In this document: in pieces, positions 32,742 through 55,521 of the stretch
Numbering within the stretch: position 1 is the first letter of the stretch
Layout of the letters: each line of letters begins with the position of its first letter
DNA from: Patescibacteria group bacterium
GTDB taxonomy: Bacteria; Patescibacteriota; Minisyncoccia; Sungbacterales; HO2-52-23
Direction of reading: 5' to 3'
DNA length: 60,947 bases
Assembly: GCA_038063315.1 (NCBI GenBank)
Contig: JBBTVI010000027.1
Location: 1 to 60,947 of the forward strand
Position numbers and translations under genes: made by a program
Notes under the pieces: generated by a model
What the model was told of the DNA's origin: nothing
The model's database searches: none
What the model saw: only the letters and a program-made list of their open reading frames with translations

Positions 32742-32748
32742 GATTCGC

Positions 32749-32775: not shown

Positions 32776-32805
32776 ATGTAAAACGAAATCTTAAAAGTAA
32801 AACTT

Positions 32806-33048: not shown

Positions 33049-33443
33049 TCGGCATAGACAGTACGGTGTTTATGTATCTTCTCGCCGAGGATAGACGCTA
33101 TTTGGCGCGCGTGGAACGGCTTTTGTCCGACGTGCGGGACGGCAAAATCAACGGGATCTTTTCATGCATCGGGTTGATTGAACTCCTGACGGGTCCGAAA
33201 AAACGCGGACAGTATGATATTGCATCGCGGTATCGCGAGATCATCGGGCAATTTCCCCATCTTTCCATCCGCGGGCTCAATGAGCGCATTGTGGATCTTG
33301 CCTCCACTCTCCGCGCGGAGTATGGTTTGCGGACGCCGGATGCGATTCACATTGCAACGGCAATTGACGGGGGCGCGATTGCGTTTGTCACCAATGACAG
33401 GCGGCTTAAAAAAGTGAAGGAAATACGGATTGATTTGCTGTAA
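33036..33443 (+). CDS. vapC: PIN-domain ribonuclease toxin VapC
   Basis: 135 aa. VIGIDSTVFMY (first acidic residue), ELLTG, PDAIHIATAI, FVTND. Confidence 0.8.
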   Translation: MEGVIGIDSTVFMYLLAEDRRYLARVERLLSDVRDGKINGIFSCIGLIELLTGPKKRGQYDIASRYREIIGQFPHLSIRGLNERIVDLASTLRAEYGLRTPDAIHIATAIDGGAIAFVTNDRRLKKVKEIRIDLL

Positions 33444-33491
33444 GAAATCTTGCGGGCCTCAGACGGAAAAACCGTTCTTTTGAAAACGCAT

Positions 33492-33573
33492 GGTGGGTTC
33501 GCCTAATGGTAGGGCATCGGTCTTGAAAACCGACGGGCGAAAGCCCTTGCAGGTTCGAGTCCTGCACCCACCG
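33492..33573 (+). tRNA. tRNA-Ser (anticodon UGA)
   Basis: Hand-folded. Acceptor stem GGTGGGT/ACCCACC, 3-bp D stem GCC/GGC, anticodon stem TCGGT/ACCGA with loop CTTGAAA, long variable arm CGGGCGAAAGCCCTT, T arm GCAGG-TTCGAGT-CCTGC, discriminator G. No encoded CCA. Confidence 0.9.
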
Positions 33574-33761
33574 CACTATTTCCTACCAGTCGTTTGTAAC
33601 CCCTCACCGCTCAAGGGAGAATGGCTTGGACTGCGACAACCGAGCGAGTGTGGGAAGGAAGTTCCCACGATTCATGGTTTCCACCTTGGGAGCTGGACAC
33701 CCTCGCCTTTAGGCGAGGCCTTTCAGGTCAATAACTCCCGTGTTAGCATGATTCAATAAAA

Positions 33762-33932
33762 TTGCAGGAGGAATTCCCGGAACTGCGGAAACGGTACTGG
33801 GGACAGCATTTCTGGGCGCGCGGCTACTTCTGTGTGTCATCGGGTAATGTCACGGACGAAGCGATTCGAGAGTACCTTGCCGGACATGCGGATAAACATG
33901 CTCATGAGATTACCGTTGAGGGACAACTTTAG
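33762..33932 (+). pseudogene. C-terminal fragment of an IS200/IS605-family Y1 transposase (tnpA relic)
   Basis: Translates to LQEEFPELRKRYWGQHFWARGYFCVSSGNVTDEAIREYLAGH..., the conserved C-terminal Tyr helix region of TnpA. The HUH half is absent, with an in-frame stop just upstream. Flanked by similar YCGCCTTTARGCGR hairpins at about 33706-33724 and 33958-33978. Confidence 0.7.
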
Positions 33933-34202
33933 AGGACTTTCAGTCCTTATTCCAATCTATCGCCTTTAAGCGATAGTGGTTGAAGGACAGGAGTATAGTA
34001 ATTGCAATGCTCTATATAGGAGCAAACGCCTGAGCTTTTTGCTGGACCGTAAGATGGACAACGACACAGCCGGGAGGCCTGTTTCGCCTCCAATCCAGCT
34101 GTTGTCCATCGCCCGCCATTGTTCCTTTTAGCTCTTTCTTTCCAATAACAAGCGCCCGCCTCCTTGATGGTTGCGGGCACCTCCAAATTCAATCTTTTTT
34201 CG

Positions 34203-34231
34203 GCCTATGCACATTGCATAGGCGTTTTTTT
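34203..34231 (+). terminator. Plus-strand intrinsic terminator abutting the pheT stop codon
   Basis: GCCTATGCA-CAT-TGCATAGGC perfect 9-bp stem followed by G and T7 on the plus strand. On the minus strand the stem is followed by CGAAAAAAG, so it does not look like the pheT terminator. Confidence 0.6.
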
Positions 34232-34232
34232 A

Positions 34233-36326
34233 TCATCGTATTGTCCAGCCATTCTCCTCACAGGCCGCGGTAATGGCCACCATAAGACGGTCTATCTCCC
34301 CGTCCGTCAGTGTCCGTTCCGGCGACTGGAAGGCGCAATGAAACGCAAAACTTTTTTCGTCTGTCGCGCGCATTGTCTCATCCTGAAACTCGTCAAAGAG
34401 ATCAGTATCAATAAGAAGCGGCCCGCCCGCTCCCTCCATTGCATTGACCACATCAGCCATCCGCGTCCTTTCCGGCACGACAAGCGCGAGATCACGGACA
34501 ATCGCCGGACATTTCCCGACTGGCCGGAATTCCGCCTCTCTCTCTACCAATGGCCAAAGGACATCATAAAATACTTCGGCCGCCGCGATGCGTTCCCGCG
34601 CCTTGATCCGCTCCCCCACCGCCGGATGAATTTCTCCGATGCGTCCGATGCGCGTGTCGCCGATTTTAATATCCGCGACTCTCTGCGGATGGAAAATGGC
34701 GTCCGCGCCGCGTCCGGCGTCGGCCACAGCATCATCATACCAATGATCGCTGATGCCGAGCGCCTCCAATAGATGATCCACCGCGCCTTTGGCCTGATAG
34801 AACGCATCCTTGCCATCCCCGCCGTTCAATGCCACCGCGAGGGCGATATGCGTCCGCTCATTTCCAAGGGTGAAACTCTTCGCAAACCCAAACAGGCGCA
34901 CCGTATCAAAATTCTTGAGATTGTCTCGCGCCGCCAACACGTATTTTATGACCGGGCGCGTGAGAAGATAGGCGGTTTCGGGACTCGTCGGATTTTCCAA
35001 AGCCACGGCATCCTTTATATCAAGACCAAAATCCGTAAGTTCCTTTTCTCCGGTAAATTCATACGCCTCATGCTCTGTGAAACCCGCGGATACGAAAATA
35101 TCGCGCGCCGTCTCCTCATACGCGAGCGCGTCATTCGGCTGGGGCGCGGCGATATTGAGCACCGGACGAACCGCCGCGATATTTTCGTAACCGTAGAGCC
35201 GCGCGGCTTCCTCAATCAAATCCTCCTCAATGCCGAGGTCGCGCCGCACGGTTGGAGGTGTAACCATCCACCCCTTTGCCGCCTCTTTGACCGCGCAGCC
35301 GATCCCCGTCAACGCCTTTTTATAGAACACCTCAGGCAATGCTGCGCCAATCACCGCACTCGCCTGCTCCGGCCGGAAAAGAATCGTTCGCGGGCGCGCC
35401 TTCACCGGATACACATCAACAACGCCGGATAAAACCGTGCCGCCGGCGACACGTCCAATGAGCGAGGCGAGCGCATCCGCCGCCTCTACGGTCTGGTTTC
35501 GATCAAGACCGTGTTCAAACCGATATGACGCGTCTGTGCGGAGCCGCAGAGACCGCGACGCGCGATGGATGATCACAGGATCAAAATTTGCCGACTCCAG
35601 TATTAACATTGTTGTCCCGTCGTGCACGCCGGAATATTGACCGCCTTTGATGCCCGCGATTGCAAGCGGCTCCATATCATCCGCAATAACAAGAATATCC
35701 GGTGACAATGCATAGGTCTGGCCGTCAAGCGCCGCCAGTTTTTCCCCGGCTCTGGCCCGACGCACGATAATTGATTTTTTCTCTGCGCCTTTTTTGGATG
35801 CCCGCGCCGATTCTTTTCCGGTTTTCAACGCCTCATAATCAAAAATATGCATGGGCTGCCCGGTCTCAAGCATGGCGTAATTGGCCGCATCCACGACGTT
35901 ATTGATGGACTGCAGCCCGCACGTCTCAAGCCGCTCGCGGAGCCACTCCGGCGACGGACCGATTTTAACGCCCTCCAGCACGCGCGCGGTATAACGCGGA
36001 CAATCATCCGCATTCTCAATGCGTACGGTCAACACCGAAGCCGCTTTTTTCTTTGTGTGTTCCCGCAGTTGTCCGCTTTTGATCCGACCCCGCGCCTTTA
36101 GCGCTTTACCCTTTGTGCTGAGCGCAAGAATCTCCCGCACCAATCCCGCATGCCCCGATGCATCCGCCACGCGGTTCGGCAGGATTTTCGTATCAAGCGC
36201 CCAGTCCCGTCCGACTTTCGCAATACTCTCCACCTCAAAAACGCCCCGCGTCAAAAAATCCGCCAGTTTCTCCGGCGTTCCCCGCCATCCCGTTAATTCC
36301 TGAAGCCAATTGTAGGAGAATTTCAT
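34233..36326 (-). CDS. pheT: Phenylalanine--tRNA ligase beta subunit
   Basis: ORF trimmed to the ATG at 36326 (MKFSYNWLQELTG, the canonical PheT N-terminus). B3/4, B5 and FDX-ACB-like regions are recognisable. Confidence 0.9.
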   Translation of the reverse strand: MKFSYNWLQELTGWRGTPEKLADFLTRGVFEVESIAKVGRDWALDTKILPNRVADASGHAGLVREILALSTKGKALKARGRIKSGQLREHTKKKAASVLTVRIENADDCPRYTARVLEGVKIGPSPEWLRERLETCGLQSINNVVDAANYAMLETGQPMHIFDYEALKTGKESARASKKGAEKKSIIVRRARAGEKLAALDGQTYALSPDILVIADDMEPLAIAGIKGGQYSGVHDGTTMLILESANFDPVIIHRASRSLRLRTDASYRFEHGLDRNQTVEAADALASLIGRVAGGTVLSGVVDVYPVKARPRTILFRPEQASAVIGAALPEVFYKKALTGIGCAVKEAAKGWMVTPPTVRRDLGIEEDLIEEAARLYGYENIAAVRPVLNIAAPQPNDALAYEETARDIFVSAGFTEHEAYEFTGEKELTDFGLDIKDAVALENPTSPETAYLLTRPVIKYVLAARDNLKNFDTVRLFGFAKSFTLGNERTHIALAVALNGGDGKDAFYQAKGAVDHLLEALGISDHWYDDAVADAGRGADAIFHPQRVADIKIGDTRIGRIGEIHPAVGERIKARERIAAAEVFYDVLWPLVEREAEFRPVGKCPAIVRDLALVVPERTRMADVVNAMEGAGGPLLIDTDLFDEFQDETMRATDEKSFAFHCAFQSPERTLTDGEIDRLMVAITAACEENGWTIR

Positions 36327-45920: not shown

Positions 45921-46048
45921 AATTCTCTCCTCCCATCCCCTGATCGGAGTTTTTTCAAAAACCATTAAACGACCACACCAATACGTAGCAAACCCACACG
46001 GCATTGTCAAACATTGAATCACCCAAAGATTTCCTCTACTGTGAATGC

Positions 46049-46744
46049 ATGACAGTAAAACCAACATTCACCACCAACGCTCTCTACCACCTGTACAACA
46101 GAGGCGTCGAAAAACGCCCGATTTTCCTTGACGACGGCGACCATTTCCGCTTTATCCACGGCCTCTACGAGTTCAACGATACAGCCACCGCGTCGAACCT
46201 TTTCTACAAAAAAGACGCCCTGCGCTCTTACGAAGTTAAGCTTCGTAAGAGGGAATTACTGGTCGAAATTCTCGCCTTTTGTTTGATGTCGAATCATTTC
46301 CATCTCTTCGTCCGTCAACGCCGCGAGTTGGGCATTACACAGTTTATGCACAAATTAGGAACCGGATATACAAATTACTTTAATAAAAAATATGAAAGAG
46401 TCGGCGGACTTTTTCAAGGCACCTTTCGCGCTAAGTACATCGAAAGCGACCGTCACTTTCTCTATCTTCCGCACTACATCCATCTCAACCCGTTGGATTT
46501 TATCGCACCGGAATGGCGTGAAAAACGCATCCGAAACAAAAATCAGGCGTTGCGATTCCTGGATAACTATCGCTGGTCCAGCTATCGCGACCATACGGGC
46601 CGTGAAAATTTTCCGTTCGTCATCGCGGGAAACGCCTTTCGCGAGTTATACACAACTCCGCAGAAATACCGACAATCCCTCGAACAATGGATTGCGGAAT
46701 TGCACAAAAATATCCGTGACATGGGCGAGATAATAATTGACTAA
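46049..46744 (+). CDS. REP-associated tyrosine transposase (RAYT; IS200/IS605-like Y1 HUH enzyme)
   Basis: YHLYNRGVEKRPIFLDDGDHFRF, the HUH motif in LMSNHFHLFV, GTFRAKYIESDRHFLYL and YIHLNPL (catalytic Tyr region). Family E REP hairpins lie immediately downstream and inside the gene. An alternative start lies at 46004. Confidence 0.8.
   Translation: MTVKPTFTTNALYHLYNRGVEKRPIFLDDGDHFRFIHGLYEFNDTATASNLFYKKDALRSYEVKLRKRELLVEILAFCLMSNHFHLFVRQRRELGITQFMHKLGTGYTNYFNKKYERVGGLFQGTFRAKYIESDRHFLYLPHYIHLNPLDFIAPEWREKRIRNKNQALRFLDNYRWSSYRDHTGRENFPFVIAGNAFRELYTTPQKYRQSLEQWIAELHKNIRDMGEIIID
46227..46249. repeat. Family E REP hairpin inside the RAYT coding sequence
   Basis: CTTACGAAG-TTAAG-CTTCGTAAG (9-bp arms, 5-nt loop). 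Encodes SYEVKLRKR in frame. Confidence 0.9.
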
Positions 46745-46748
46745 CAAA

Positions 46749-46771
46749 CTTACGAAGTTAAGCTTCGTAAG
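46749..46771. repeat. Family E REP hairpin, 5 nt downstream of the RAYT stop
   Basis: Identical 23-mer CTTACGAAGTTAAGCTTCGTAAG. Confidence 0.9.
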
Positions 46772-46789: not shown

Positions 46790-48535
46790 ATGCGGTCTTT
46801 CAGACTTACGAAGTTAAGCTTCGTAATAATGTCGGTGGTGTTAATAATCCTCGCGTATCCGCCGTCCACGGCGTGGCTGCGCTGGCTTATATTTATCGCG
46901 CTCGTGCCGTTGATACGCTTTTTAGATCATGCTGAAACAAAAAAGCGGGCGTTTTGGGGCCTGTTTCTTTTTTCGTTTCTTTTTCTCGGGTGGAATATCC
47001 GATGGTTTTTCTCGGTATTACCGGCTGACTGGGCTGGCATTGAAAACCCCGTTGCCGGAGCAGCGCTCGTCGGTATTATCTGGCTCCTCACGACAATCGT
47101 CCTATCTCTCCCAATGGCCGCAGTCGGGACACTCTATGCGACGATTCAAACAAAGCGCGCCCAACAACACATCACAAAGCCCCTGCTATTCCTTCTGCCG
47201 TCATTGTGGATCCTCGGCGAGTACTTACGCGCGTGGCTTTTCAGCGTTTTCTGGGTCGGACCGGGGACTCTTCTCGGGCCGCACTGGACATTCGGATTTC
47301 TCGGATATGACCTGACGAATTTCCCACTCCTCCTTCAATCATCAAAACTTGTCGGCGTCTATGGCGCCGGATTTCTGCTTATCCTTGCCAATGTGTGCGC
47401 CGCTCGAATAATCGCGACGCGCGGGCTACACATTCATCGGCGACTTACGTTTACGAGGTTTCACCTCGTAAGATTCTCAAATATTGCTATCGTTTGCGCT
47501 ATCGTGACGGCGTTGTTATTCTACGGTGCGCGACAACTTAAATCGGATCGTTCCCCGCCCGGTGAGATAAAAAAAATCGTCCTCCTCCAAACCAACGCCT
47601 ACCATTACGCCTTTCACGACGCGGCCGCCTTCGAACAATTTATCCGCGACGAACTGAACCTCCTGCGCCGGGCCGCCTATCAAAAACCGGACATCGTGAT
47701 TCTCCCCGAAGGATCGCGCTTGACGCTCAGATTCGGCGAACGCACTCCGGCTATTCTCCAAGACATCTTCGGAACAGAGCGCTCGATCATCATCGTTGAC
47801 AGCGCGCGTCTCAGCCAGACCGGGCCATCCAAAGAGCGGACATTCATCTATGACACGCGCGCGGGCCTCATCGGCATCAGCGACAAAACACTCACAATTC
47901 CGGGTGGGGAATATTTGCCGACGGTTCTAACGACGGCTGCGCGCTTCGCCGGGCAAAAAAAATGGCTGGATCGCTTCGCCCACCTTCGGCATATCATCCC
48001 CGGCGAATATAGTCCGCACGCCGCGCTTGACCCGCGCCGCCAGCCGCTTGGCATTCAACTCTGCTCCGCGGTTCTTGCGCCTCATCTTTGGCGGGATCCC
48101 GTGAAAAACGCGAGCGCGCAGCTGCTCGTCAACGCCGCGAGCCAGGGGCTTTTCAAGGGATCGGCGTTCCGCGATCAAGCGCTCGCGTGGCTCCGTTTTT
48201 TTGCGGCCTCCAACGATCGGTGGCTTGCCCAGGCGGCCAACAGCGGATACTCATATATTATTGACAACAACGGCCAAGTCCGCGCCCGCACCGACACTCT
48301 CGGTCTTCAGACAATTGCCGGAATTGTTGAATACCGCGCGACAAAAACGCCTTACGTCCGCTTCGGCGATTGGCCGCTCATTGCCGCCATCATTGTGCTT
48401 GTCTTGACCATTGTATCCGGCCGGCCAATTACGATTAAAATAAACCGCGAAATAAAACCCAATAGCGGCGGACACCCGCACACGCCGCCGGAAAACGCAG
48501 GACGGTTTGAAGCTGCGTCAGACGAGCCATGTTGA
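46790..48535 (+). CDS. lnt: Apolipoprotein N-acyltransferase-like protein (Lnt paralogue 1)
   Basis: 581 aa. N-terminal polytopic domain plus a C-terminal CN-hydrolase domain with DIVILPEG (Glu), SDKTLTIPGGEYLP (Lys) and GIQLCSAV (Cys). GAGG lies 8 nt upstream of the ATG. Confidence 0.75.
   Translation: MRSFRLTKLSFVIMSVVLIILAYPPSTAWLRWLIFIALVPLIRFLDHAETKKRAFWGLFLFSFLFLGWNIRWFFSVLPADWAGIENPVAGAALVGIIWLLTTIVLSLPMAAVGTLYATIQTKRAQQHITKPLLFLLPSLWILGEYLRAWLFSVFWVGPGTLLGPHWTFGFLGYDLTNFPLLLQSSKLVGVYGAGFLLILANVCAARIIATRGLHIHRRLTFTRFHLVRFSNIAIVCAIVTALLFYGARQLKSDRSPPGEIKKIVLLQTNAYHYAFHDAAAFEQFIRDELNLLRRAAYQKPDIVILPEGSRLTLRFGERTPAILQDIFGTERSIIIVDSARLSQTGPSKERTFIYDTRAGLIGISDKTLTIPGGEYLPTVLTTAARFAGQKKWLDRFAHLRHIIPGEYSPHAALDPRRQPLGIQLCSAVLAPHLWRDPVKNASAQLLVNAASQGLFKGSAFRDQALAWLRFFAASNDRWLAQAANSGYSYIIDNNGQVRARTDTLGLQTIAGIVEYRATKTPYVRFGDWPLIAAIIVLVLTIVSGRPITIKINREIKPNSGGHPHTPPENAGRFEAASDEPC
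46805..46826. repeat. Family E REP hairpin inside the first codons of lnt paralogue 1
   Basis: CTTACGAAGTTAAGCTTCGTAA. Encodes LTKLSFV. Confidence 0.9.
47451..47472. repeat. Family E-like REP hairpin inside lnt paralogue 1
   Basis: TTACGAGGT-TTC-ACCTCGTAA(G), preceded by a partial copy CTTACGT. Encodes TFTRFHLVRF. Confidence 0.8.
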
Positions 48536-49430
48536 ATCCCGAGACCCATCGAGCGTCAAAAACAAAAAGATGGAACAAAAACAACCCGATCGTCAAATCA
48601 GTCAGGTTGAGCAGCAGCAATATTCCGAAGTGAAAACACGTCATCGCGAGCCACACGAGACGCCGCGTTTTACGCCACAAACAAAGCGGCGCAAACCCCG
48701 CCTCCAATGCTAAAACCCCCCATGTGAAAATTTGGAATATCCACACGGGAAATTGCAGTATCCAATCAACGATCCATGAATCCCGCCCAGCACCGCTTGC
48801 AAGGATCTGAAAAAACGCGGTCCCGTCTATCCAACTCGGGCTGCCCATTTTCTGAAATCCGCTGATGGTATAACCGAGCGCCAAAACAATCCACGCGCCA
48901 TAAAAAATAATCCCGGGCATTTTCCAATCGGCACGCGCGCGTTGCCGCCGCGATCCAATGGACAGCGGCTCGCCTGTCGGAATGATCGTTGAGGCGAGCA
49001 ACAACCACCCCACGTAGTGAACGCTGATGTCGCCCGCGAGAATATTTGCATTCAATAAACACGCCCAGCCATACCATAAGAAAAGGGATGCGGCGCGGCG
49101 CAGAACGCCGCACGAGTAAAAAACCGATAACGCCGCCAACACAACAATAAACAAAGTAACGCCGCCGGAGGAATCAGCAAGGGACAGCACGTTGGGAAAA
49201 ATGCCGTTGGAAAAGGCGTAACGCGCTTCCGCCATCATTCCTGTCCGTCCAAACACTTCCGGCGCATAAGGGAGGAGCCGCACAAAATGGACCGCAAGGT
49301 AGACCCCGAAAACAATACGCCAAATCGCAAACTGCGTCGGCGAGTAAAACACGGCGGCTCTATCTGCCAAGGCGTGCACAAAGGCCCACATGCTCCGTAC
49401 CCGTATTAAAATGCGACGCAAATGTGTCAT
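48435..49430 (-). CDS. HTTM-domain (vitamin-K-dependent gamma-carboxylase-like / SdpB-like) polytopic membrane protein
   Basis: Start taken at 49430 (MTHLRR), giving an ATGA overlap with the upstream stop. FAIWRIVFGVYLAVHFVRLLPYAPEVFG... followed by multiple TMs matches my recollection of the HTTM/SdpB N-terminal pattern. Not verified by search. Confidence 0.5.
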   Translation of the reverse strand: MTHLRRILIRVRSMWAFVHALADRAAVFYSPTQFAIWRIVFGVYLAVHFVRLLPYAPEVFGRTGMMAEARYAFSNGIFPNVLSLADSSGGVTLFIVVLAALSVFYSCGVLRRAASLFLWYGWACLLNANILAGDISVHYVGWLLLASTIIPTGEPLSIGSRRQRARADWKMPGIIFYGAWIVLALGYTISGFQKMGSPSWIDGTAFFQILASGAGRDSWIVDWILQFPVWIFQIFTWGVLALEAGFAPLCLWRKTRRLVWLAMTCFHFGILLLLNLTDLTIGLFLFHLFVFDARWVSGFNMARLTQLQTVLRFPAACAGVRRYWVLFRGLF

Positions 49431-49975
49431 TGGCGTTTTCCGCAATCAATAGCGATGGTCCAGACCATATCACGATTCCGCAAGTGATCGCCCGCCCGCG
49501 CGATTCTGGATTCCCCCGTGACGATTGCCTGCTTGACGGATGTCGTGATGCCGATTTCCGACAGAATGCTTGCTTGGCATATTCCGTAATGCAAAACCGC
49601 GCGCATCATCTCCCGTATCGGCTGCCCCTGCGCCGTCGTCGGCCAATACGTCAATGTGTTGGTATACGGATTGCGTCGCGTCATGGGGCCCCGCAGGCGC
49701 GAAGAAGTTTCGGAATCCAGGGCCCGCCGGATTATCTGGCCCTCCTCCGTCATAACCCTCATCTCCACCGAAAACGCGAACGTGTCAATACCGTTGATAT
49801 GCGTAAAAACAATCGGCACGGGAGATGCCACGGTCATGGCGCCCGCGCGCTCGAGAGCTGCCCATCCGGTTGCGTATCCGGCCATCTGTAGCAAACCGAT
49901 CGCCACCACGATAGACGCCGAGCCAGCGCGAACCGCTTTTCTGAAAGCCGCTTTGTCAAAATATGCGAGATGCAT
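49427..49975 (-). CDS. Hypothetical protein in the SdpA position (immediately upstream of and translationally coupled to the HTTM gene)
   Basis: 182-aa ORF with one N-terminal hydrophobic segment (ASIVVAIGLLQMAGYA). The call rests on position only. Confidence 0.4.
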   Translation of the reverse strand: MHLAYFDKAAFRKAVRAGSASIVVAIGLLQMAGYATGWAALERAGAMTVASPVPIVFTHINGIDTFAFSVEMRVMTEEGQIIRRALDSETSSRLRGPMTRRNPYTNTLTYWPTTAQGQPIREMMRAVLHYGICQASILSEIGITTSVKQAIVTGESRIARAGDHLRNRDMVWTIAIDCGKRQ

Positions 49976-49983
49976 GATAGAAA

Positions 49984-51144
49984 TCAGTCCGGCGCAAAGT
50001 AAAATCCCAACATGCCCATGGACGCGCCTAGAAGCGCCTTACCGGACGGATTCGAATATATAGCGGCAATAGAGATAATATCGCCCGGGCGAATGCGCCG
50101 CCGCGTCCACAACTGTTGTGTCTCCCACTCCCACGGAGGGGACGCGCGCTTCTTGGTTATGAGTTGGGCAATGCGCCTGCCATTAAGAGACACGATCAGC
50201 TTTTCTCCGCCCTCCCATCCATGGAGGTGCCCACCGAATCCGAGCAGCGCGCCGGGACGCCGGAATGTGTACTCGGCCGTGCTTACGCCATTCACTCGCG
50301 CTCCGCGAAATTCCGCGTGGTCGCTGCGGGCCGGTATTGCAAAGGTGTCGTCCAGAACAAGACCGATATTCTCCACGCCGTTCGGCGCGCGCAAACCTTC
50401 CATATCCTGCGCATATGCGCATGGCGTATCGTCAATCCGTAATCGCTGATACTCAACCCTCCGTGAGCGCCGTCCGGTTGCGGCGCGCTCCACCCTCATA
50501 CGGAGCGCCGCCGACACATCGCGATAAAAACCGCCTGGACCGTACGGGGGGAAAGGATTATGAACAATGGCATGAAGCATCAACGGAGTGCCGGATGCAA
50601 CGAACATCCCATAGGGCTCGGGAAAAATGACTGGCGCGTAGTTGGCGTCCAACGCGCCGGTAATAAGTTCCTGATAAAAAATAGGGCAGACGCCATCCGT
50701 CTCATCAAGACGCTGAAGCGTTGAGTGATGCAAAACAACCAAAGGGGCATTTCGCACGTCCCATCGAAATTCCGTGATCCAGAAATCCTCCGTTGCCACA
50801 TACGCGTCCGACCCGAGAAAAACACCGTGTCCGGCATCGTGCAGTTTGTTCAGCGAGGGTTCGTGTGCATGCGGCGGCAACTGAGCAATATGCATGGTCT
50901 CCAGCACAAAAGCCGCCCCTCGATCCGCGCGAGACGCGCTTTCGCTCCAGCGATATAAAGAAACGGCGGCGACCGCGATGAGTAAAACGACCGCCGCGGC
51001 AATACGGCGCGTTTTTGATTGTATCGGAAAAAGAGTAAACACGATGCGTAGTAATCTCTCACAGCCGTCATTGCTTCGTCGTCTAACTCCTCGCAATGAC
51101 GATTTATCGTAAAATTTGTAAGCGGGTGTAAAAGGTACGGACAA
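49984..51144 (-). CDS. Membrane-anchored PHM/DBH-like (copper type II ascorbate-dependent monooxygenase-like) protein, paralogue 1
   Basis: Motifs in 386-aa ORF numbering: HH at 139-140 (VVLHHSTLQRLD...C), H191/H195 (LMLHAIVHNP), H306-x-H308 (GGHLHGWEGGE), PGDIISIAAIYSN and M376/M378 (GASMGMLGFYFAP). The first ~30 codons are a family A repeat, so the true start may be the GTG at 51042. Confidence 0.45.
   Translation of the reverse strand: MSVPFTPAYKFYDKSSLRGVRRRSNDGCERLLRIVFTLFPIQSKTRRIAAAVVLLIAVAAVSLYRWSESASRADRGAAFVLETMHIAQLPPHAHEPSLNKLHDAGHGVFLGSDAYVATEDFWITEFRWDVRNAPLVVLHHSTLQRLDETDGVCPIFYQELITGALDANYAPVIFPEPYGMFVASGTPLMLHAIVHNPFPPYGPGGFYRDVSAALRMRVERAATGRRSRRVEYQRLRIDDTPCAYAQDMEGLRAPNGVENIGLVLDDTFAIPARSDHAEFRGARVNGVSTAEYTFRRPGALLGFGGHLHGWEGGEKLIVSLNGRRIAQLITKKRASPPWEWETQQLWTRRRIRPGDIISIAAIYSNPSGKALLGASMGMLGFYFAPD
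51051..51100. repeat. Family A mini-element (internally deleted)
   Basis: GTAATCTCTCACAGCCGTCATTGC-TTCGTCGTCTAACTCCTCGCAATGAC. Lies inside the long-ORF N-terminus of PHM-like paralogue 1. Confidence 0.8.
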
Positions 51145-51149
51145 TCCCC

Positions 51150-52163
51150 TTACTTTGTGTCCGGCGCAAAATAAAACCCGATTTGTCCCATGGCTGAGTC
51201 CACCAATGGCGCGGCCTGCGGATTGGAATACGTTGCGTCAATGGACAAAACATCACCCTTCGCCACGCGCCGAAACAATTTTATATGCGGCGTCTCCCAC
51301 GACCATAGATTATCAGCGGTCTGACGCGAAACAAGCGATGCGAGAATGTCGCCATTCAAAAAAACTCCCACGGACTCACCGCCTTCCCAGGCATGGATAT
51401 GTCCTCCAACCCCGAATAACATGCCAGATGACATAAAGGTATACTCGGCGGTGTGAAACGGTCCGTTCCGCGCCTGCGCCGCTGTGAAGCGCGCGTGCGC
51501 GCTGCGGGCCGGAATTACGAATGTTTCGACTGTTACCGGATCAGCGCACGGCGAATCATCAAGACGCAGACGCCTGTACTCCAGCCGCCTATGCCGCCGA
51601 GAAACCGTCGCCCGTTCAACGTCCATCACTAACCGAACGGAAACATTCTCATAAATCCCGCCCGGGCCGTGCGGCGAAACAGGATTGTGCGCCATGACAT
51701 TGACCTCAAGCGGCGTCCCTTTCGGCAGAAAAATCCCGTAGGGAGAGGGAAAAACAACCGAAGTATGTATTGTATCAATACTGCCGGTAAAAAGCTCTTC
51801 CCACGATCTCGGACACACAGGATCCATCCGATCTATTCTCTGAAAAACAGCATGATGCACAATATGCGGGGGGGCATTCTGCACCTCCCAACGGAGCCCC
51901 GTGACCCAAAGATCGTCTCCCGCCGCCACTACCGGCGACAAAAGATATACCCCATGCCCTGCGCTGAAGATTTTATCCTTGAGCGGCGTATGCGGATGCG
52001 AAGGAAAACTCGCCAACGCATTGGTCTCAATTACAAAGCGCCGCGATCCACCGACCATCCCGGCCGCATCGCGAGAGCCGCCACGCATGAACAACCACCC
52101 GAAAAACGCGACAACCAACAATCCAAGCGCGCCCCATATGTACAAAGGCCGTCTCATTTCCAT
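51150..52163 (-). CDS. Membrane-anchored PHM/DBH-like protein, paralogue 2
   Basis: Same motif set: IVHHAVFQRID..C, VMAHNP, GGHIHAWEGGE, KGDVLSIDATYSN, SAMGQIGFYFAP. N-terminal TM. Start at 52163 or 52157, because the upstream codons are a family B repeat. Confidence 0.45.
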   Translation of the reverse strand: MEMRRPLYIWGALGLLVVAFFGWLFMRGGSRDAAGMVGGSRRFVIETNALASFPSHPHTPLKDKIFSAGHGVYLLSPVVAAGDDLWVTGLRWEVQNAPPHIVHHAVFQRIDRMDPVCPRSWEELFTGSIDTIHTSVVFPSPYGIFLPKGTPLEVNVMAHNPVSPHGPGGIYENVSVRLVMDVERATVSRRHRRLEYRRLRLDDSPCADPVTVETFVIPARSAHARFTAAQARNGPFHTAEYTFMSSGMLFGVGGHIHAWEGGESVGVFLNGDILASLVSRQTADNLWSWETPHIKLFRRVAKGDVLSIDATYSNPQAAPLVDSAMGQIGFYFAPDTK

Positions 52164-52193
52164 AATACATAATACATGCCCCATAATTCATCC
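52159..52193. repeat. Family B half-site between PHM-like paralogues 3 and 2
   Basis: TTCCATAATACATAATACATGCCCCATAATTCATCC. Confidence 0.8.
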
Positions 52194-53251
52194 TATTCAT
52201 CCCACGCGGCATAAAATCCGACCATTCCCATTGCCGAACCCGTCAAATCTTCGGCGAACAAATTGGAGTATGTCGCGGAAATCGAGAGAACATCGCCTGC
52301 CTCCAAACGTACCCGACGCCTGATCCAGTAAAAGGGAGTTTCCCATAGCCATAGCCAATCTCCTTTCTGCCTGCTGTTTAATGAAAATAACGCGCGCCCG
52401 TTAAGCAGCAGCGCCAATTCTTCTCCGCCTTCCCAGCCGTGGGTATGCCCGCCAAAACCCACAAGAGTCCCTGGCCGTTGAACGACATACGCGCCGGATT
52501 CTGCGTGCCCGTCCTCGGGCCGCGCGGCCGCCATTGTCCAATGGCGCGCGCCCGCCGGAATACTAAAAACCTCTGCCGGCGCGACATTTTTCCGTAATGG
52601 GTATACACACGGTGTCCCACTCAACCGCAAACGATTATACTCCAATGCGCGAAAACGACGCGACAGCGTTGCCGCCTCCACTGTCAAATTCAAACGCGCG
52701 GCAACATTATCGTACGTCCCGCCGGATCCGTACGGAGGAAGAGGGTTATGCAACATCGCGCTAATGCCGATGGGGGTTCCGGCCGGGAGAAAAATCCCGA
52801 ACGGCTCCGGAAATTCAATATGCCGCGGCGCGTCAATGGCCGTTGTCGCAATTTCCTGAAACCACGACGCGGGACAAAGCGGATCCGGCCGGTCAAGACG
52901 CTGAACCAGCGCATGATGGATCACCTCCTGCGGAGCATTCTCCGCGCGCCATTCCAGCGCGGTCACCCACAGCGGCGTGTCCGTCACCCATATATCGGAC
53001 ACCGCAACAACACCGTGTCCCTGCGCGACCACCGTATCGGTACTGGGATTATGCGGGTGTGGTACAAGCTGCAAAATCGGCCGCGTCTTGATGGTGAACT
53101 GGCGCGACACCGCCGACCCATGGGTTGCATCGGAAACAATGCGCCATGCAATGAAACCAAAAACCAAGACGCAAGATGCGCTGGCAATGATAATCGTACG
53201 CGCCGTTGCAATGTGACGCAGATGACCAAAAAATTGCGCCCTTGTGATCAT
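52193..53251 (-). CDS. Membrane-anchored PHM/DBH-like protein, paralogue 3
   Basis: Same motif set: VIHHALVQRLD..C, AMLHNP, GGHTHGWEGGE, AGDVLSISATYSN, SAMGMVGFYAAW. ORF trimmed to the ATG at 53251, because the upstream 45 codons are a family C repeat. Confidence 0.45.
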   Translation of the reverse strand: MITRAQFFGHLRHIATARTIIIASASCVLVFGFIAWRIVSDATHGSAVSRQFTIKTRPILQLVPHPHNPSTDTVVAQGHGVVAVSDIWVTDTPLWVTALEWRAENAPQEVIHHALVQRLDRPDPLCPASWFQEIATTAIDAPRHIEFPEPFGIFLPAGTPIGISAMLHNPLPPYGSGGTYDNVAARLNLTVEAATLSRRFRALEYNRLRLSGTPCVYPLRKNVAPAEVFSIPAGARHWTMAAARPEDGHAESGAYVVQRPGTLVGFGGHTHGWEGGEELALLLNGRALFSLNSRQKGDWLWLWETPFYWIRRRVRLEAGDVLSISATYSNLFAEDLTGSAMGMVGFYAAWDE

Positions 53252-53292
53252 AAAGTTTCTCAATAACGTTAAGACAAAATGTCTCTTTTTTT

Positions 53293-53374
53293 CTGTCATT
53301 CCCGCGCAGGCGGGAATCCAGATTTCTCTCTTTGAGAAGGCAAAACCTGGACCCCCGCCTTCGCGGGGGTGACA
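53293..53374. repeat. Family C element between lnt paralogue 2 and PHM-like paralogue 3
   Basis: CTGTCATTCCCGCGCAGGCGGGAATCCAGATTT...AACCTGGACCCCCGCCTTCGCGGGGGTGACA. Confidence 0.9.
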
Positions 53375-53385
53375 AAAGCAATGCA

Positions 53386-55236
53386 TTATTCGCCAACCTC
53401 CTGATGCTCCATCGTCTCCTCATTCCCCAACACACCGAAAAGTCTTCGTTGCGTCCTCCTGCGCCCGTACAAAAATAATAGCGCCACCAACACTCCGGCA
53501 AGCGCGACAGGCCAGTCGCCGAAACGAACGTAAGGGGTTTTTGTTGTCCGGTAGTCAACGTCCCCCGTCAGAATCGTATCGCCCAGTGCGTTAGTCCGTG
53601 CGCGGATAGCGCCCGTCTCGTCAATGATGTAGGAATATCCGCCGTTTGCGGCCTGCACAACCCAACGATCATTCATCGCCGCGTACGATTGCAGCATGGC
53701 GCGGGATTGCGCGTGAAATGCCGGATGATTCAACAGGCCGACGCTCGCGGCATTGATCAAAACCTGACTGCGATTCGCCGTTTCCCGCCAGAGAACCGGG
53801 GAAAAAATCGTGGTGCAGAGTTGCACGCCTTCAGCCAAACGCCTGGGGTCCAGAGACGCGAACGGCGCAACCTCTCCTTTGTAAATCCGGCGATACCAAT
53901 TAAAATGCCGGATCACGTTGGTCATCCCGAACAATTTAAGAACGCCATGAACAGTATAAGCCAAATATTCCCCATTAGGCACTAAAAAAACCTTGTCGCT
54001 CACCGCCACCAATCCTTTCTCTGTATCATAGAAAAAAAGCCGCGCCTTGGACGGCCTCTGAAGGTCGAGCCGCCCGCTATCAATCACTAACGCCGGGTTA
54101 TTCGCATGGAAAATCCGCGCAAGAACATCCGGCGTCTCTCCGCGAAAGCGGAGCGTGAGATCCGACGCTTCGGGCAAAACAACCACGTCGGGCCGGACTG
54201 TCGCAGTGTTCTTTAGTAATACCAATTCTCTATCAATGTAATTTTTGTACACGGCCGGATCAATGGTGCGGTAAATCAATTCATTGGTTTGCACCAGCGT
54301 AAATCGCTTTTTTTGAGCAACATCCCGACCGCGTCCTGCAAACTGCGCGCGACCGTACAGTAGTAAAACAACAATAACGGCGCCGACGGATAAGGTTCTT
54401 ATGAAGCTTAACTTCGTAAGTAATTGAAAACGCCTCTCTCGTTCGTCATTGCGAGCGACCCCGAGTTTGGCGAGGGGGAGCGCGGCAATCCATCTTTTTC
54501 TGGATTGCGGAGCCTGTCCCGAGCGAAGCGAGGGATCTAACTCCTCGCAATGACTCTTGAGGCGGCTTCTAAGGTGCATAAAAATCCCCCTCAATCCCCC
54601 TTTTTCAAAGGGGGAAGCATTAAAAAATTCCGCGATCGCGACATTCACGAGTACAATAAGAGCGCTTGCGCCGTAGACGCCGAATAGTTTTGTGGACTGC
54701 AAAAGCAATGGGAAATCCGCCAGGGCATAGCCCAGAAATCCGGGAGCCCAATGCGGGCCGAGCAGCGACCCCGGGCCAATCCACGCCAACGAATAGAACC
54801 ACGCCCGGCCATACTCGCCAAGAATCCAGAAAAAAGGAAACACAAATAAACGCGTACGTGCCGGGAAAAAAGTAGCTCCGTATCCCGCTAGTCCCATTGG
54901 CAGGGCGAAAATAGCTGCTGTCGCGCACCAATACAAAAAAATAATCAAAAGCCCGGTGGACGGACTCGTCACCCCGGCCCATTTTGCGGATGAGGCGGCA
55001 AAAAACCACCGAAGCGTCCATGCCGCAAAAGCGAATTCCATGAGAAACACGCCCCAAAACACCTGTTTGCGGCTTGCCCGCCGGAGAAAAAAACAAAAAG
55101 GAACAAGAGCAATCCACAGGAACCAGCGCGATACGGCCGGGGGATAGGCCGCAATGAGCAGTACCACAGAAATGAGCGGGGCTAAATTGCCCAACAGCCG
55201 TCGGCCCTTTATCGCTTCAAAAAAACGCATCTTCAT
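53386..55236 (-). CDS. lnt: Apolipoprotein N-acyltransferase-like protein (Lnt paralogue 2) carrying a ~74-aa repeat-derived in-frame insertion
   Basis: 616 aa, collinear with paralogue 1 (YPPAVSRW, LRWFF, WILGEYGRAW, VVVLPEA, SDKVFLVPNGEYLA, GVQLCTT, FGDWP). The segment SPFEKGGLRGIF...SHCEEL...WIAALPLAKLGVARND...LLTKLSFI is encoded by repeat families F, A and E. Confidence 0.75.
   Translation of the reverse strand: MKMRFFEAIKGRRLLGNLAPLISVVLLIAAYPPAVSRWFLWIALVPFCFFLRRASRKQVFWGVFLMEFAFAAWTLRWFFAASSAKWAGVTSPSTGLLIIFLYWCATAAIFALPMGLAGYGATFFPARTRLFVFPFFWILGEYGRAWFYSLAWIGPGSLLGPHWAPGFLGYALADFPLLLQSTKLFGVYGASALIVLVNVAIAEFFNASPFEKGGLRGIFMHLRSRLKSHCEELDPSLRSGQAPQSRKRWIAALPLAKLGVARNDERERRFQLLTKLSFIRTLSVGAVIVVLLLYGRAQFAGRGRDVAQKKRFTLVQTNELIYRTIDPAVYKNYIDRELVLLKNTATVRPDVVVLPEASDLTLRFRGETPDVLARIFHANNPALVIDSGRLDLQRPSKARLFFYDTEKGLVAVSDKVFLVPNGEYLAYTVHGVLKLFGMTNVIRHFNWYRRIYKGEVAPFASLDPRRLAEGVQLCTTIFSPVLWRETANRSQVLINAASVGLLNHPAFHAQSRAMLQSYAAMNDRWVVQAANGGYSYIIDETGAIRARTNALGDTILTGDVDYRTTKTPYVRFGDWPVALAGVLVALLFLYGRRRTQRRLFGVLGNEETMEHQEVGE
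54398..54420. repeat. Family E REP hairpin (one mismatch) inside lnt paralogue 2
   Basis: CTTATGAAGCTTAACTTCGTAAG, in inverted orientation relative to the 46749 copy. Encodes LLTKLSFI on the minus strand. Confidence 0.85.
54445..54554. repeat. Family A element inside the lnt paralogue 2 coding sequence
   Basis: GTCATTGCGAGCGACCCCGAGTTTGGCGAGGGGGAGCGCGGCAATCC ... GGATTGCGGAGCC...CTCGCAATGAC, read in frame by the 616-aa ORF. Confidence 0.85.
54580..54617. repeat. Family F hairpin repeat inside lnt paralogue 2
   Basis: AAAAATCCCCCTCAATCCCCCTTTTTCAAAGGGGGAAG, nearly identical to the 2391 copy. Encodes SPFEKGGLRGIF on the minus strand. Confidence 0.85.
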
Positions 55237-55287
55237 TGCTTCATTGTCCCGCAGAAAGGAAGAAGAGACAACACAACTTCTACATGC

Positions 55288-55521
55288 GTCATTGCGAGGA
55301 GTGCAGCGGAACGATCCCTCCCCTTGCTCGGAACAATCTCCGCAATCCAGGGGGAGTCGTCATTGCGAGGAGTCCTGCTGCAGGACGACGAAGCAATCCA
55401 GTATTTCTGCCTTTACGGATTGTTTCGTCGCTGCTGCTCCTCGCGAGGACGGTCGAAATGGATTGCCGCGCGCCCCCTCATCAAACTCGGGGTCGCTCGC
55501 AATGACGGCTGTAAGGGGTTA
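55288..55521. repeat. Family A compound element
   Basis: Four half-units. The 3' 165 nt are nearly identical to window positions 1-163. Confidence 0.85.

What the first reader, a model, noticed from the sequence alone, without database searches (positions are those of the whole stretch)
49984..53251. Three tandem paralogues share a His/His/His ... His-x-His ... Met motif set with PHM-like spacing
This was seen directly by aligning the three translations by eye.

All three share these motifs, in order:
- an N-terminal TM anchor;
- HxH(E/T/N)P;
- GHGV;
- WV/IT...RW (LEW in the third paralogue);
- NAP..V/I-HH-..QR(L/I)D....CP;
- FP(E/S)P(Y/F)G(M/I)F...GTP;
- (V/A/L)HNP..P.GPGG (GSGG in the third paralogue);
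- RR...EY.RLR...(T/S)PC;
- GGH-x-H-x-WEGGE;
- LNG;
- W.WET;
- RR(I/V)..GD(I/V)(I/L)SI.A.YSN;
- (G/D/G)(A/S)(S/A)MG..GFY.A.

In the 386-aa copy the HxH pair is at 306/308 and a conserved Met is at 376/378. That places the Met 70 residues after the second His. In rat PHM the CuM ligands are H242, H244 and M314, also 70 residues apart, and the CuH ligands are H107, H108 and H172.

The local contexts also resemble my memory of PHM: HH followed by a Cys a few residues later, a GD.(I/L)....Y.N strand, and then a G.S/A.M...Y strand.

Triplication with substantial divergence suggests sub-functionalisation, for example different substrates.
Basis: partly seen in the sequence, partly recalled or inferred. 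Interest (0 to 1): 0.7.

Follow-up and report, generated by a model that had tools for sequence, protein, structure and literature searches.

The report
Bacterial PHM-like copper monooxygenase triplet
Three neighbouring genes in an uncultured ultra-small (CPR) bacterium encode membrane-anchored, very distant relatives of the animal copper enzymes that make amidated peptide hormones and noradrenaline, with all six copper-binding residues intact, which matters because one review tabulates this enzyme class as eukaryote-only.

Summary
Three tandem minus-strand genes (49984-51042, 51150-52184, 52193-53251) are 40-47% identical and share every listed motif.

The PHM reading also holds:
- An AlphaFold2 model of the middle copy (pLDDT 79) has PHM and dopamine beta-hydroxylase as its 25 best PDB matches, across both domains (E 5e-11).
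- A 111-member family profile aligns to a PHM profile at 94.8% probability (E 1e-8). A reversed control gives 0%.
- The alignment puts H110/H111/H166 on the CuH ligands and M332 on the CuM methionine. The HxH falls at PHM's HxH, with a 2-residue register uncertainty.
- H262/H264/M332 are lost together in 16 of 111 representatives.

Corrections and differences:
- The ligand Met is M376 of the 386-aa copy, 68 residues after the second His, not 70.
- PHM's substrate residues (R240, N316, Y318) are absent, so these are not peptidylglycine hydroxylases.
- No Pfam model reaches threshold.
- An extra conserved His trio (H63/H65/H77) is unexplained.

The family (about 230 clusters) carries only CPR organism names. 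It is membrane-anchored and sits beside an Lnt-like acyltransferase in 4 of 8 independent contexts.

Most likely these are extracytoplasmic two-copper monooxygenases acting on an unknown envelope substrate. Copper binding and activity are untested.

The parts
52193..53251 (-). Paralogue 3 (352 aa from the ATG at 53251). It has an N-terminal membrane anchor and a two-domain PHM-like ectodomain. Putative ligands: N-terminal trio H65/H67/H79; CuH-like H112/H113/H168; CuM-like H269/H271/M341; Cys pair C126/C215.
51150..52184 (-). Paralogue 2 (344-aa ORF; most homologues start at the position of M10). This is the copy that was modelled. Putative ligands: H63/H65/H77; CuH-like H110/H111/H166; CuM-like H262/H264/M332; C124/C213.
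49984..51042 (-). Paralogue 1 (352 aa from the GTG at 51042; the ORF extends to 51144 through a REP-like element). Ligands in the 386-aa numbering: H92/H94/H106; H139/H140/H195; H306/H308/M376; C153/C242.
53386..55236 (-). Lnt-like gene (LNT_N plus CN_hydrolase), directly upstream on the same strand. A pair of REP-like repeats lies in frame at 54444-54555, between the two domains.
   Evidence: Lnt-like genes are adjacent to family members in L005, L006 and L009
46790..48535 (+). Second Lnt-like gene (LNT_N plus CN_hydrolase) on the other flank. The nucleophile Cys aligns with the ICYE Cys of P. aeruginosa Lnt.
49427..49975 (-). 182-aa predicted membrane-anchored protein of unknown family, 8 nt downstream of paralogue 1. 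It is probably co-transcribed. It is not found next to relatives elsewhere.
48435..49445 (-). 336-aa polytopic (about 8 helices) membrane protein of unknown family, overlapping the end of the 182-aa gene. It is not found next to relatives elsewhere.

Best explanation
The three genes are lineage-specific tandem in-paralogues. They belong to a family so far named only from Candidate Phyla Radiation (Patescibacteria) genomes. The family is a remote homologue of the eukaryotic type II copper monooxygenases PHM and DBH.

Each protein has one N-terminal transmembrane helix, with positive residues before it, so the rest is predicted to lie outside the cytoplasm. That ectodomain is made of two beta-sandwich domains:
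- Domain 1 carries a His3 site (H110, H111, H166 in copy 2) equivalent to CuH.
- Domain 2 carries a His2Met site (H262, H264, M332) equivalent to CuM.

Inferred mechanism, by analogy with PHM:
1. Both coppers are reduced by an external one-electron donor.
2. O2 binds at CuM.
3. The Cu(II)-superoxo species abstracts a hydrogen atom from a C-H bond of a substrate held in the inter-domain cleft.
4. CuH supplies the second electron.
5. The substrate is hydroxylated.

The substrate is not a glycine-extended peptide. Gene neighbours and domain fusions point to a cell-envelope molecule, such as a lipoprotein or lipid made or remodelled by the adjacent Lnt-like acyltransferase, a polyprenyl-phosphate-linked intermediate, or peptidoglycan.

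Shown: paralogy, family, fold, homology, ligand conservation and covariation, membrane anchor, and the Lnt neighbourhood. Inferred: copper binding, O2 chemistry, reductant, substrate, and divergence of function among the three copies.

My sub-probabilities: PHM/DBH-superfamily homologue about 0.9; binds two coppers at these sites about 0.75; works as an O2-dependent monooxygenase about 0.6; acts on an envelope substrate linked to Lnt about 0.3.
For: - Fold: the AF2 model of copy 2 has pLDDT 78.9 and pTM 0.75 and is all-beta after one helix. The 25 best Foldseek PDB hits are PHM or DBH over both domains, E 4.7e-11 to 1.3e-7.
- Homology: hhalign of family against PHM profile gives 94.8% global and 92.5% local probability; the reversed control gives 0%. 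DBH is the top PDB hit of the family HMM (E 0.057), with HxH aligned on DBH's HTH. Weak Pfam hits of some members go to Cu2_monoox_C (4 members), Cu2_monooxygen (1) and SURNod19 (13). UniProt's automatic name for member A0A1G2PXP4 is 'Copper type II ascorbate-dependent monooxygenase C-terminal domain-containing protein'.
- Ligands: H110 is 98% conserved, H111 94%, H166 95%, H262 86%, H264 86% and M332 84% across 111 representatives. The mapping onto H107/H108/H172/(H242/H244)/M314 is. H262/H264/M332 change together to N/W/(S,A,T) in 16 of 111 representatives, with almost no intermediate state.
- Shared non-ligand motifs: (F/T)VIP and GD(I/V)L.
- Location: 99 of 107 members have a hydrophobic segment just upstream of the domain. 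A covarying Cys pair, C124/C213, is present. Fusions exist to PAP2 undecaprenyl-diphosphatase, sulfatase, PG_binding_1 and SLH.
- Lnt link: an Lnt-like gene lies directly beside a family member in the window (both flanks), L005, L006 and L009.
- All three copies keep nearly every column that is at least 80% conserved in the family and form a clade of three.
Against: - Identity to PHM is only 11-14%, and TM-scores are 0.43-0.60 with rmsd 5-9 A.
- No Pfam or NCBIfam model reaches threshold on any window protein.
- The PDB sequence hit is marginal.
- hhalign places the HxH two residues out of register with PHM's HxH.
- PHM's substrate triad R240/N316/Y318, 99-100% conserved in PHM, is absent.
- CPR bacteria are generally regarded as fermentative and often anaerobic (my background knowledge). 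No reductant system and no copper-handling gene was seen in the parts of the window that were scanned.
- 14% of the family lacks the CuM triad, so not every member can be catalytic in this way.
- Lnt adjacency holds in only about half of the independent contexts.
Confidence: 0.6

Rival explanations
1. The protein has the PHM fold and binds copper, but it is not a substrate-hydroxylating monooxygenase. It could be an extracytoplasmic copper store or buffer, a copper-resistance protein, an oxidase or reductase (for example of superoxide or nitrite), or an electron-transfer protein.
For: - The ligand sets are conserved, but PHM's substrate-binding residues are not.
- An extra conserved His/Asp-rich segment (H63, H65, D70, D74, H77) looks like an additional metal-binding loop.
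- One relative lies next to Zip, MgtE and CusB-like transporter genes.
- An O2-dependent enzyme would be unexpected in CPR bacteria (my background knowledge).
Against: - A His2Met site paired with a separate His3 site is, as far as I know, the signature of the PHM/DBH catalytic core rather than of storage proteins.
- The cleft-lining motifs GD(I/V)L and VIP are conserved too.
- Neighbourhoods are mostly envelope biosynthesis genes, not metal-resistance genes.
Confidence: 0.17
2. It is a non-catalytic double beta-sandwich module that binds an envelope polymer (glycan or peptidoglycan), or a PNGase F-like hydrolase. PNGase F shares the PHM fold. On this reading the conserved His residues are structural or bind a structural metal.
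For: - The PHM fold is shared with PNGase F (SCOP 'PHM/PNGase F' superfamily, from my background knowledge).
- 16 of 111 members lack the CuM triad yet persist, and two of these are fused to PG_binding_1.
- Lower Foldseek hits include carbohydrate-binding jelly-rolls.
Against: - PNGase F is not among the top 50 structural hits, while PHM and DBH take ranks 1-25.
- Six residues that align with the PHM copper ligands are 84-98% conserved, and the CuM triad covaries as a unit.
- A methionine is an unlikely structural-metal ligand.
Confidence: 0.1
3. The His clusters bind zinc or iron, and the protein is a metallohydrolase or a non-copper oxygenase acting on envelope lipids or peptides.
For: - His3 sites also occur in Zn and Fe enzymes.
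- Neighbours include lipid phosphatases, Lnt-like acyltransferases and peptidases.
Against: - Homology and ligand equivalence point to PHM/DBH specifically.
- A His2Met site is typical of Cu(I)/Cu(II) chemistry.
- No hydrolase family was detected by any profile.
Confidence: 0.08
4. The resemblance to PHM is convergent or a chance result of comparing all-beta proteins, and the family is unrelated to PHM.
For: - Identity is 11-14%.
- The Pfam models fail.
- TM-scores are around 0.5.
Against: - Two independent methods agree over both domains and on the same residue equivalences: a fold search on a model built without templates, and a sequence profile-profile comparison.
- The reversed control scores 0%.
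- DBH is the top sequence hit in the PDB.
Confidence: 0.03

Closest known systems
Peptidylglycine alpha-hydroxylating monooxygenase (PHM, catalytic core of PAM; Pfam PF01082 + PF03712; PDB 1PHM/1OPM/1SDW)
   Same: - Two-domain beta-sandwich fold.
- Profile-profile homology at 94.8% probability.
- A His-His...His site in domain 1 and a His-x-His...Met site in domain 2, at equivalent strand ends.
- Shared VIP and GD(I/V)L motifs.
- Extracytoplasmic or luminal location.
   Different: - Identity is 11-14%, and the Pfam models do not reach threshold.
- The host is bacterial (CPR), not eukaryotic.
- An N-terminal membrane anchor replaces the signal peptide plus PAL domain.
- The substrate residues R240/N316/Y318 are absent.
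- Only one Cys pair is present, against PHM's five disulfides.
- CuH spacing is 55 against 64 residues, and CuM spacing 68 against 70.
- There is an extra conserved H63/H65/H77 segment.
- A sub-family lacks CuM.
Dopamine beta-hydroxylase, tyramine beta-hydroxylase and MOXD1 (PDB 4ZEL)
   Same: - Same catalytic core.
- 4ZEL is the best PDB sequence hit of the family HMM, with HxH aligned on DBH's CuM HTH.
- 4ZEL is a strong structural hit (E 5e-8).
   Different: - No DOMON domain and no C-terminal dimerisation domain (no Pfam hit).
- Much shorter proteins, anchored in the membrane.
- No evidence for a phenylethylamine substrate.
SURNod19 / MtN19-like proteins (Pfam PF07712)
   Same: - This is the Pfam family most often hit by family members: 13 of 111, best E 2.2e-4.
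- Function is uncharacterised.
- Plant Nod19 is a validated target of miR398, which also targets the Cu/Zn superoxide dismutase CSD1, in a paper on copper homeostasis (PMC3882225).
- From memory, this family sits in the same Pfam clan as the PHM domains.
   Different: - All hits are below the gathering threshold, and none involves a window protein.
- Known members are plant stress and nodulation proteins.
- Residue-level correspondence was not examined here.
PNGase F (peptide-N4-(N-acetyl-beta-glucosaminyl)asparagine amidase F)
   Same: It shares the double eight-stranded beta-sandwich architecture of the 'PHM/PNGase F' superfamily (my background knowledge).
   Different: - It is not among the top 50 structural matches.
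- It has no copper sites.
- The conserved His and Met residues of this family have no counterpart in it.

Membership tests
Type II copper monooxygenases (PHM/DBH superfamily) | Two consecutive beta-sandwich domains with PHM topology | tested here: met
   In the Foldseek search of the AF2 model, ranks 1-25 are PHM or DBH, E 4.7e-11 to 1.3e-7, with about 320-340 aligned columns.
Type II copper monooxygenases (PHM/DBH superfamily) | CuH site: two adjacent His plus a third His about 60 residues later in domain 1 (PHM H107, H108, H172) | tested here: met
   H110, H111 and H166 align exactly to H107, H108 and H172 in hhalign. They are 98%, 94% and 95% conserved in 111 representatives and present in all three window copies.
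Type II copper monooxygenases (PHM/DBH superfamily) | CuM site: His-x-His plus a Met about 70 residues later in domain 2 (PHM H242, H244, M314) | tested here: met
   M332 aligns to M314. The HxH aligns to DBH's HTH in hmmsearch, while in hhalign it is shifted by 2 residues (H264 on H242). The triad covaries as a unit. The spacing is 68 residues.
Type II copper monooxygenases (PHM/DBH superfamily) | Statistically supported sequence homology | tested here: met
   hhalign gives 94.8% probability (E 1.2e-8) in global mode and 92.5% in local mode. The reversed control gives 0%.
Type II copper monooxygenases (PHM/DBH superfamily) | Match to Pfam PF01082 and PF03712 above the gathering threshold | tested here: not met
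   There is no hit for the three window proteins even at E <= 10. Only 4 and 1 of 111 relatives give sub-threshold hits.
Type II copper monooxygenases (PHM/DBH superfamily) | The two His/Met clusters face each other across a solvent cleft about 11 A apart | not testable with these tools
   The tools do not release model coordinates. Only the secondary structure and the fold matches were available.
Type II copper monooxygenases (PHM/DBH superfamily) | Binds two coppers and shows O2- and reductant-dependent hydroxylation | not testable with these tools
   This needs biochemistry.
PHM proper (peptidylglycine hydroxylase orthologue) | Residues that bind the substrate carboxylate and backbone: R240, N316, Y318 | tested here: not met
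   These residues are 99-100% conserved in 110 PHM sequences. In the CPR family they correspond to H or G, a gap or variable position, and L/V/F/I.
DBH / TBH / MOXD type | N-terminal DOMON domain | tested here: not met
   No DOMON hit was found in any of the 111 members. In these proteins the domain begins about 15 residues after the membrane helix.
SURNod19 (PF07712) | Match above the Pfam gathering threshold | tested here: not met
   13 of 111 relatives hit it, best E 2.2e-4, all below threshold. None of the window proteins hits it.

The most novel reading that the evidence does not exclude
CPR bacteria display on their surface a previously undescribed branch of O2-activating two-copper monooxygenases. 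This branch has an additional (third) His-cluster metal site. It works together with an Lnt-like acyltransferase and polyprenyl-phosphate or lipid phosphatases to hydroxylate lipoprotein N-termini, scavenged host lipids or wall precursors. That would be a new envelope-modification pathway in episymbionts. It would also be a prokaryotic lineage relevant to the origin of the PHM/DBH enzymes. The repeated, independent tandem duplications (three copies here, two in Terrybacteria, two in Spechtbacterales) would then reflect diversification of substrate range.
Probability: 0.2. Interest if true: 0.8.

Novelty: new variant of a known kind. Interest (0 to 1): 0.6.

Why it matters
PHM and DBH are textbook eukaryotic neuroendocrine enzymes, and a 2020 review of metalloproteomes lists both under eukaryotes only (PMC7435645).

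This is a compact bacterial family with both copper sites intact, and it offers several things:
1. A small (about 300 residues), single-anchor, prokaryotic model for the still-debated long-range CuH-to-CuM electron-transfer mechanism.
2. A data point on where this enzyme class came from.
3. An unexpected O2- and copper-dependent activity on the surface of CPR bacteria, whose physiology and host interaction are poorly understood.
4. A natural experiment: sub-families that lost CuM, or that replaced Met by His and His by Cys.

The link with Lnt-like acyltransferases gives a concrete starting point for finding the substrate.

Automatic annotation has already attached a 'copper type II monooxygenase C-terminal domain' name to one member. 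The fold assignment is therefore not wholly new. The family-level picture is what is new.

Tried and rejected
- Pfam and NCBIfam scans of the three proteins at E <= 10 gave only noise (TraL_transposon, Toxin_11, MIGRI).
- PDB sequence searches with the 3- and 7-sequence profiles gave nothing meaningful. Only the 111-sequence profile brought up DBH, and marginally.
- hhalign against a single PHM sequence gave only 24% probability. A PHM family profile was needed.
- The word-indexed homologue search found only 4-7 outside relatives. The exhaustive profile search was needed to see the family.
A1 gave 3 GTDB loci.
- The look-up of encoding contigs for P0001 found no record, so the sample of origin of the window is unknown.
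- The two downstream membrane proteins (182 aa and 336 aa) have no Pfam, NCBIfam or PDB match and no homologue next to relatives elsewhere. My guess that they might be HTTM- or SdpAB-like is unsupported.
- The single-sequence AF2 model of the 336-aa protein was too poor to search with (pLDDT 50.7, pTM 0.26).
- The promoter and terminator scan was uninformative, with counts near the shuffled expectation.
- Scanning ten distant members to locate the SURNod19 matches produced only one weak Cu2_monoox_C hit.
- Seven literature searches found no paper on this family or on bacterial PHM-like enzymes in the held library.
- A PNGase F-like assignment was rejected because PNGase F is absent from the top structural hits.

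Full report
**1. The observation**

The minus strand carries three consecutive ORFs at 49984-51144, 51150-52184 and 52193-53386. They align end to end with 40-47% pairwise identity. The database search scores copy 1 against copy 2 at E 1.6e-88, so chance is excluded.

Each protein starts with one hydrophobic helix preceded by basic residues.

The gene starts need refining:
- Copy 3 starts at the ATG at 53251. The ORF upstream of it is a palindromic repeat.
- Copy 1 probably starts at the GTG at 51042 (352 aa, P0002). The ORF upstream of it crosses a REP-like element.

The ligand-candidate Met is M376, not M378. M376 is invariant in the three copies, 84% conserved in the family, and aligned to PHM M314. 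M378 is Gln in copy 2. The spacing is therefore 68 residues, against 70 in PHM.

**2. The family**

No Pfam or NCBIfam model matches any of the three proteins. The word-indexed search found only four outside relatives.

An exhaustive HMM search of 1.84 billion cluster representatives found 233 representatives at E <= 1e-3, of which 113 score below 1e-30.

Every member that carries an organism name comes from the Candidate Phyla Radiation: Terrybacteria, Kaiserbacteria, Spechtbacterales, 'Parcubacteria group' and Saccharibacteria.

The window itself is a chromosomal CPR-type stretch encoding PheST, Lon, trigger factor, an H+-pyrophosphatase and YceG. Its PheS is 51% identical to that of a Terrybacteria MAG.

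**3. Fold and homology**

An AlphaFold2 model of copy 2, built from a 7-sequence alignment without templates, reached pLDDT 78.9 and pTM 0.75. It shows one N-terminal helix followed by an all-beta protein.

The Foldseek search against the PDB gave these results:
- Ranks 1-22 and 24 are rat PHM structures (E 4.7e-11 to 1.1e-7).
- Ranks 23 and 25 are human dopamine beta-hydroxylase (4ZEL, E 4.6e-8 and 1.3e-7).
- All are aligned over about 320-340 columns, that is both domains.
- The next fold appears only at E 1e-5.
- TM-scores are modest (0.43-0.60), as expected for a hinged two-domain protein at 11-14% identity.

I checked a rat PHM catalytic-core sequence against PDB chain 1SDW_A. The version I recalled differed at five N-terminal residues, and the corrected PDB sequence was used from there on. 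I then collected 110 PHM-family sequences and ran hhalign against a 111-member family alignment:
- Global mode: probability 94.8%, E 1.2e-8, 262 columns.
- Local mode: probability 92.5%.
- Reversed-template control: probability 0%.

Independently, the family HMM's best PDB sequence hit is DBH (E 0.057). That alignment places the family's HxH on DBH's HTH, and a weaker segment places its HH on DBH's VHHM.

A few family members give sub-threshold Pfam hits: SURNod19 (13 of 111), Cu2_monoox_C (4) and Cu2_monooxygen (1). UniProt's automatic name for one member (A0A1G2PXP4) is 'Copper type II ascorbate-dependent monooxygenase C-terminal domain-containing protein'.

**4. The copper-site residues**

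Conservation across 111 full-length representatives, in copy 2 numbering:

| Residue | Conserved | PHM equivalent in hhalign |
|---|---|---|
| H110 | 98% | H107 |
| H111 | 94% | H108 |
| H166 | 95% | H172 |
| H262 | 86% | R240 (H242 in the DBH-based register) |
| H264 | 86% | H242 (H244 in the DBH-based register) |
| M332 | 84% | M314 |

The hhalign register for the HxH pair is two residues off. The hmmsearch alignment to DBH puts HxH on HxH exactly. A two-residue shift keeps side-chain orientation on a strand, so I treat HxH on HxH as the likely truth and flag the ambiguity.

In the model, the ligand candidates lie where PHM's ligands lie:
- H110/H111 are at the start of a strand.
- H166 and H262/H264 are at strand ends.
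- M332 is just before the last strand.

The strongest internal evidence for a functional site is covariation. H262, H264 and M332 are replaced together by N, W and S/A/T in 16 of 111 representatives, and those representatives keep the CuH triad. Only two other representatives depart from the full triad, each at the Met position alone.

Non-ligand motifs are shared with PHM too: (F/T)VIP and GD(I/V)L.

All three window copies carry the full ligand set. The codon coordinates were verified.

**5. Differences from PHM and DBH**

- PHM's substrate-anchoring residues R240, N316 and Y318 are 99-100% conserved in PHM but have no counterpart here. These are not peptidylglycine hydroxylases.
- There is no DOMON domain.
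- PHM's five disulfides are replaced by one covarying Cys pair, C124/C213. C124 aligns with PHM C131.
- The family has an extra conserved segment before domain 1: L-x-P-H63-x-H65-x3-D-x3-D-x2-H77, with the His residues 84-86% conserved. It is poorly modelled, with pLDDT below 50 for residues 66-76.
- This His trio is mostly missing in the CuM-less sub-family. The 2x2 table is 80/13/5/13, Fisher p 1.5e-6, not corrected for phylogeny. Its role is unexplained. A third metal site, a copper-loading loop or an electron-entry point are all possible.

**6. Context and likely role**

99 of 107 members have a hydrophobic segment directly before the domain. Together with the Cys pair, this argues for an extracytoplasmic, membrane-tethered enzyme.

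In the window the three genes lie in a tightly spaced same-strand array:
1. Lnt-like gene (53386-55236)
2. copy 3
3. copy 2
4. copy 1
5. 182-aa membrane protein
6. 336-aa polytopic membrane protein

A second Lnt-like gene lies on the other flank.

An Lnt-like gene (LNT_N plus CN_hydrolase) is also directly adjacent to a family member in three other contexts:
- a syntenic Parcubacteria contig (L005);
- a Saccharibacteria genome (L006, 2-nt gap);
- a contig carrying a CuM-less member (L009).

That makes 4 of 8 independent contexts.

Elsewhere the neighbours or fusion partners are also envelope-related:
- a DAGK-PAP2 fusion gene as neighbour;
- PAP2 undecaprenyl-diphosphatase as an N-terminal fusion;
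- sulfatase, PG_binding_1 and SLH domains as fusions;
- lytic transglycosylases, Mur ligases and an M23 peptidase as neighbours.

I therefore infer an envelope substrate, possibly connected to the product or substrate of the Lnt-like acyltransferase. This is inference only. The electron donor is unknown, and no copper-handling gene was seen in the parts of the window I scanned.

**7. The triplication**

In a neighbour-joining tree of the family, the three window copies are each other's closest relatives. This is a lineage-specific triplication.

Independent tandem pairs exist in two other lineages:
- Terrybacteria: P0003 and P0009, adjacent in L001, L002 and L004.
- Spechtbacterales: adjacent locus tags WD850_00670 and WD850_00675.

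Each window copy keeps almost every column that is at least 80% conserved in the family. All three are therefore probably functional. Different substrate specificities are plausible but untested.

**8. Verdict**

Still unproven are the site geometry (no coordinates were available), copper binding, O2 chemistry and the substrate.

I found no paper describing this family, and one review lists PHM and DBM under eukaryotes only. An automatic database name already hints at the fold for one member.

I class it as a new variant of a known kind, of moderate to high interest.

Noticed in passing
window, 37 sites (e.g. 1-12, 2452/2533, 10851/10933, 44267, 51090, 54444/54544, 55287-55507, 60892): The 12-mer CGTCATTGCGAG occurs 37 times with up to 1 mismatch (0.65 expected from shuffles). 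Most copies form inverted pairs about 80-180 nt apart, mostly in intergenic DNA. This looks like a REP/MITE-like palindromic element family. Copies lie at position 1 and about 45 nt from the other end of the window.
   Followed up: partly
window 54444-54555 (inside the Lnt-like ORF 53386-55236): One inverted pair of the REP-like element lies inside the Lnt-like ORF and is read through in frame. It falls between the LNT_N and CN_hydrolase domains, at about residues 227-264. It is either a tolerated insertion in a linker or a sign that this Lnt copy is impaired.
   Followed up: no
window 46004-46744 (+), with palindromes at 46227-46249, 46749-46771, 46805-46827 and 54398-54420: An IS200-like Y1 transposase gene (Pfam Y1_Tnp, E 2e-8) is accompanied by copies of a perfect 23-nt palindrome, CTTACGAAGTTAAGCTTCGTAAG, inside and just after the gene. 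A further copy lies 7.6 kb away, next to the REP pair in the Lnt ORF. This may be a REP-associated tyrosine transposase (RAYT) system.
   Followed up: partly
window 53252-53386: A second kind of palindromic repeat (GTCACCCCCGCGAAGGCGGGGGTCCAG ... CTGGATTCCCGCCTGCGCGGGAATGAC) fills the spacer between the Lnt-like gene and paralogue 3. It creates a spurious 45-codon N-terminal extension of the ORF.
   Followed up: no
family-wide; examples P0004, P0005, P0006, P0008, P0036, P0051 (L003, L009): A sub-family (16 of 111 representatives) keeps the CuH-like His3 site but has replaced the whole CuM-like triad H/H/M by N/W/(S,A,T). Most of these members also lack the N-terminal His trio. Two are fused to a peptidoglycan-binding domain. 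They may be single-copper or non-catalytic derivatives.
   Followed up: partly
L001 7517-8551 (P0009, Terrybacteria; also in L002 and L004): The second tandem paralogue in Terrybacteria has Cys in place of the first CuH His (ILCHAG) and His in place of the CuM Met (AHGMLGF). This is a natural ligand-swap variant. It is also the member that UniProt names as containing a copper type II monooxygenase C-terminal domain.
   Followed up: no
window 51954-51998 (copy 2 H63, H65, H77) and the equivalent codons in copies 1 and 3: A conserved His/Asp-rich segment, L-x-P-H-x-H-x3-D-x3-D-x2-H (His residues 84-86% conserved), precedes domain 1. It has no counterpart among PHM's ligands and is modelled with low confidence. 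It could be a third metal site, but its role is unexplained.
   Followed up: partly
window 48435-49975 (-): Two membrane proteins lie downstream in the same gene array: 182 aa with one helix, and 336 aa with about eight helices. They match no Pfam, NCBIfam or PDB entry and have no homologues next to family members elsewhere. The single-sequence AF2 model of the larger one was unusable (pLDDT 51).
   Followed up: partly
window about 32000-36000: GC skew is positive from 1 to about 34 kb and negative from about 34 kb to the end, whatever the gene orientation. Cumulative skew peaks near 34 kb. This may mark a replication terminus or origin-type switch.
   Followed up: no
L007 4083-7251 (Parcubacteria contig carrying P0142): A distant family member sits between a ZIP-family metal transporter plus DUF378 upstream and a peptidase_M10-like gene plus MgtE downstream. 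DoxX and CusB-like genes lie a few kb away. This is the only context seen with metal-transport neighbours.
   Followed up: no
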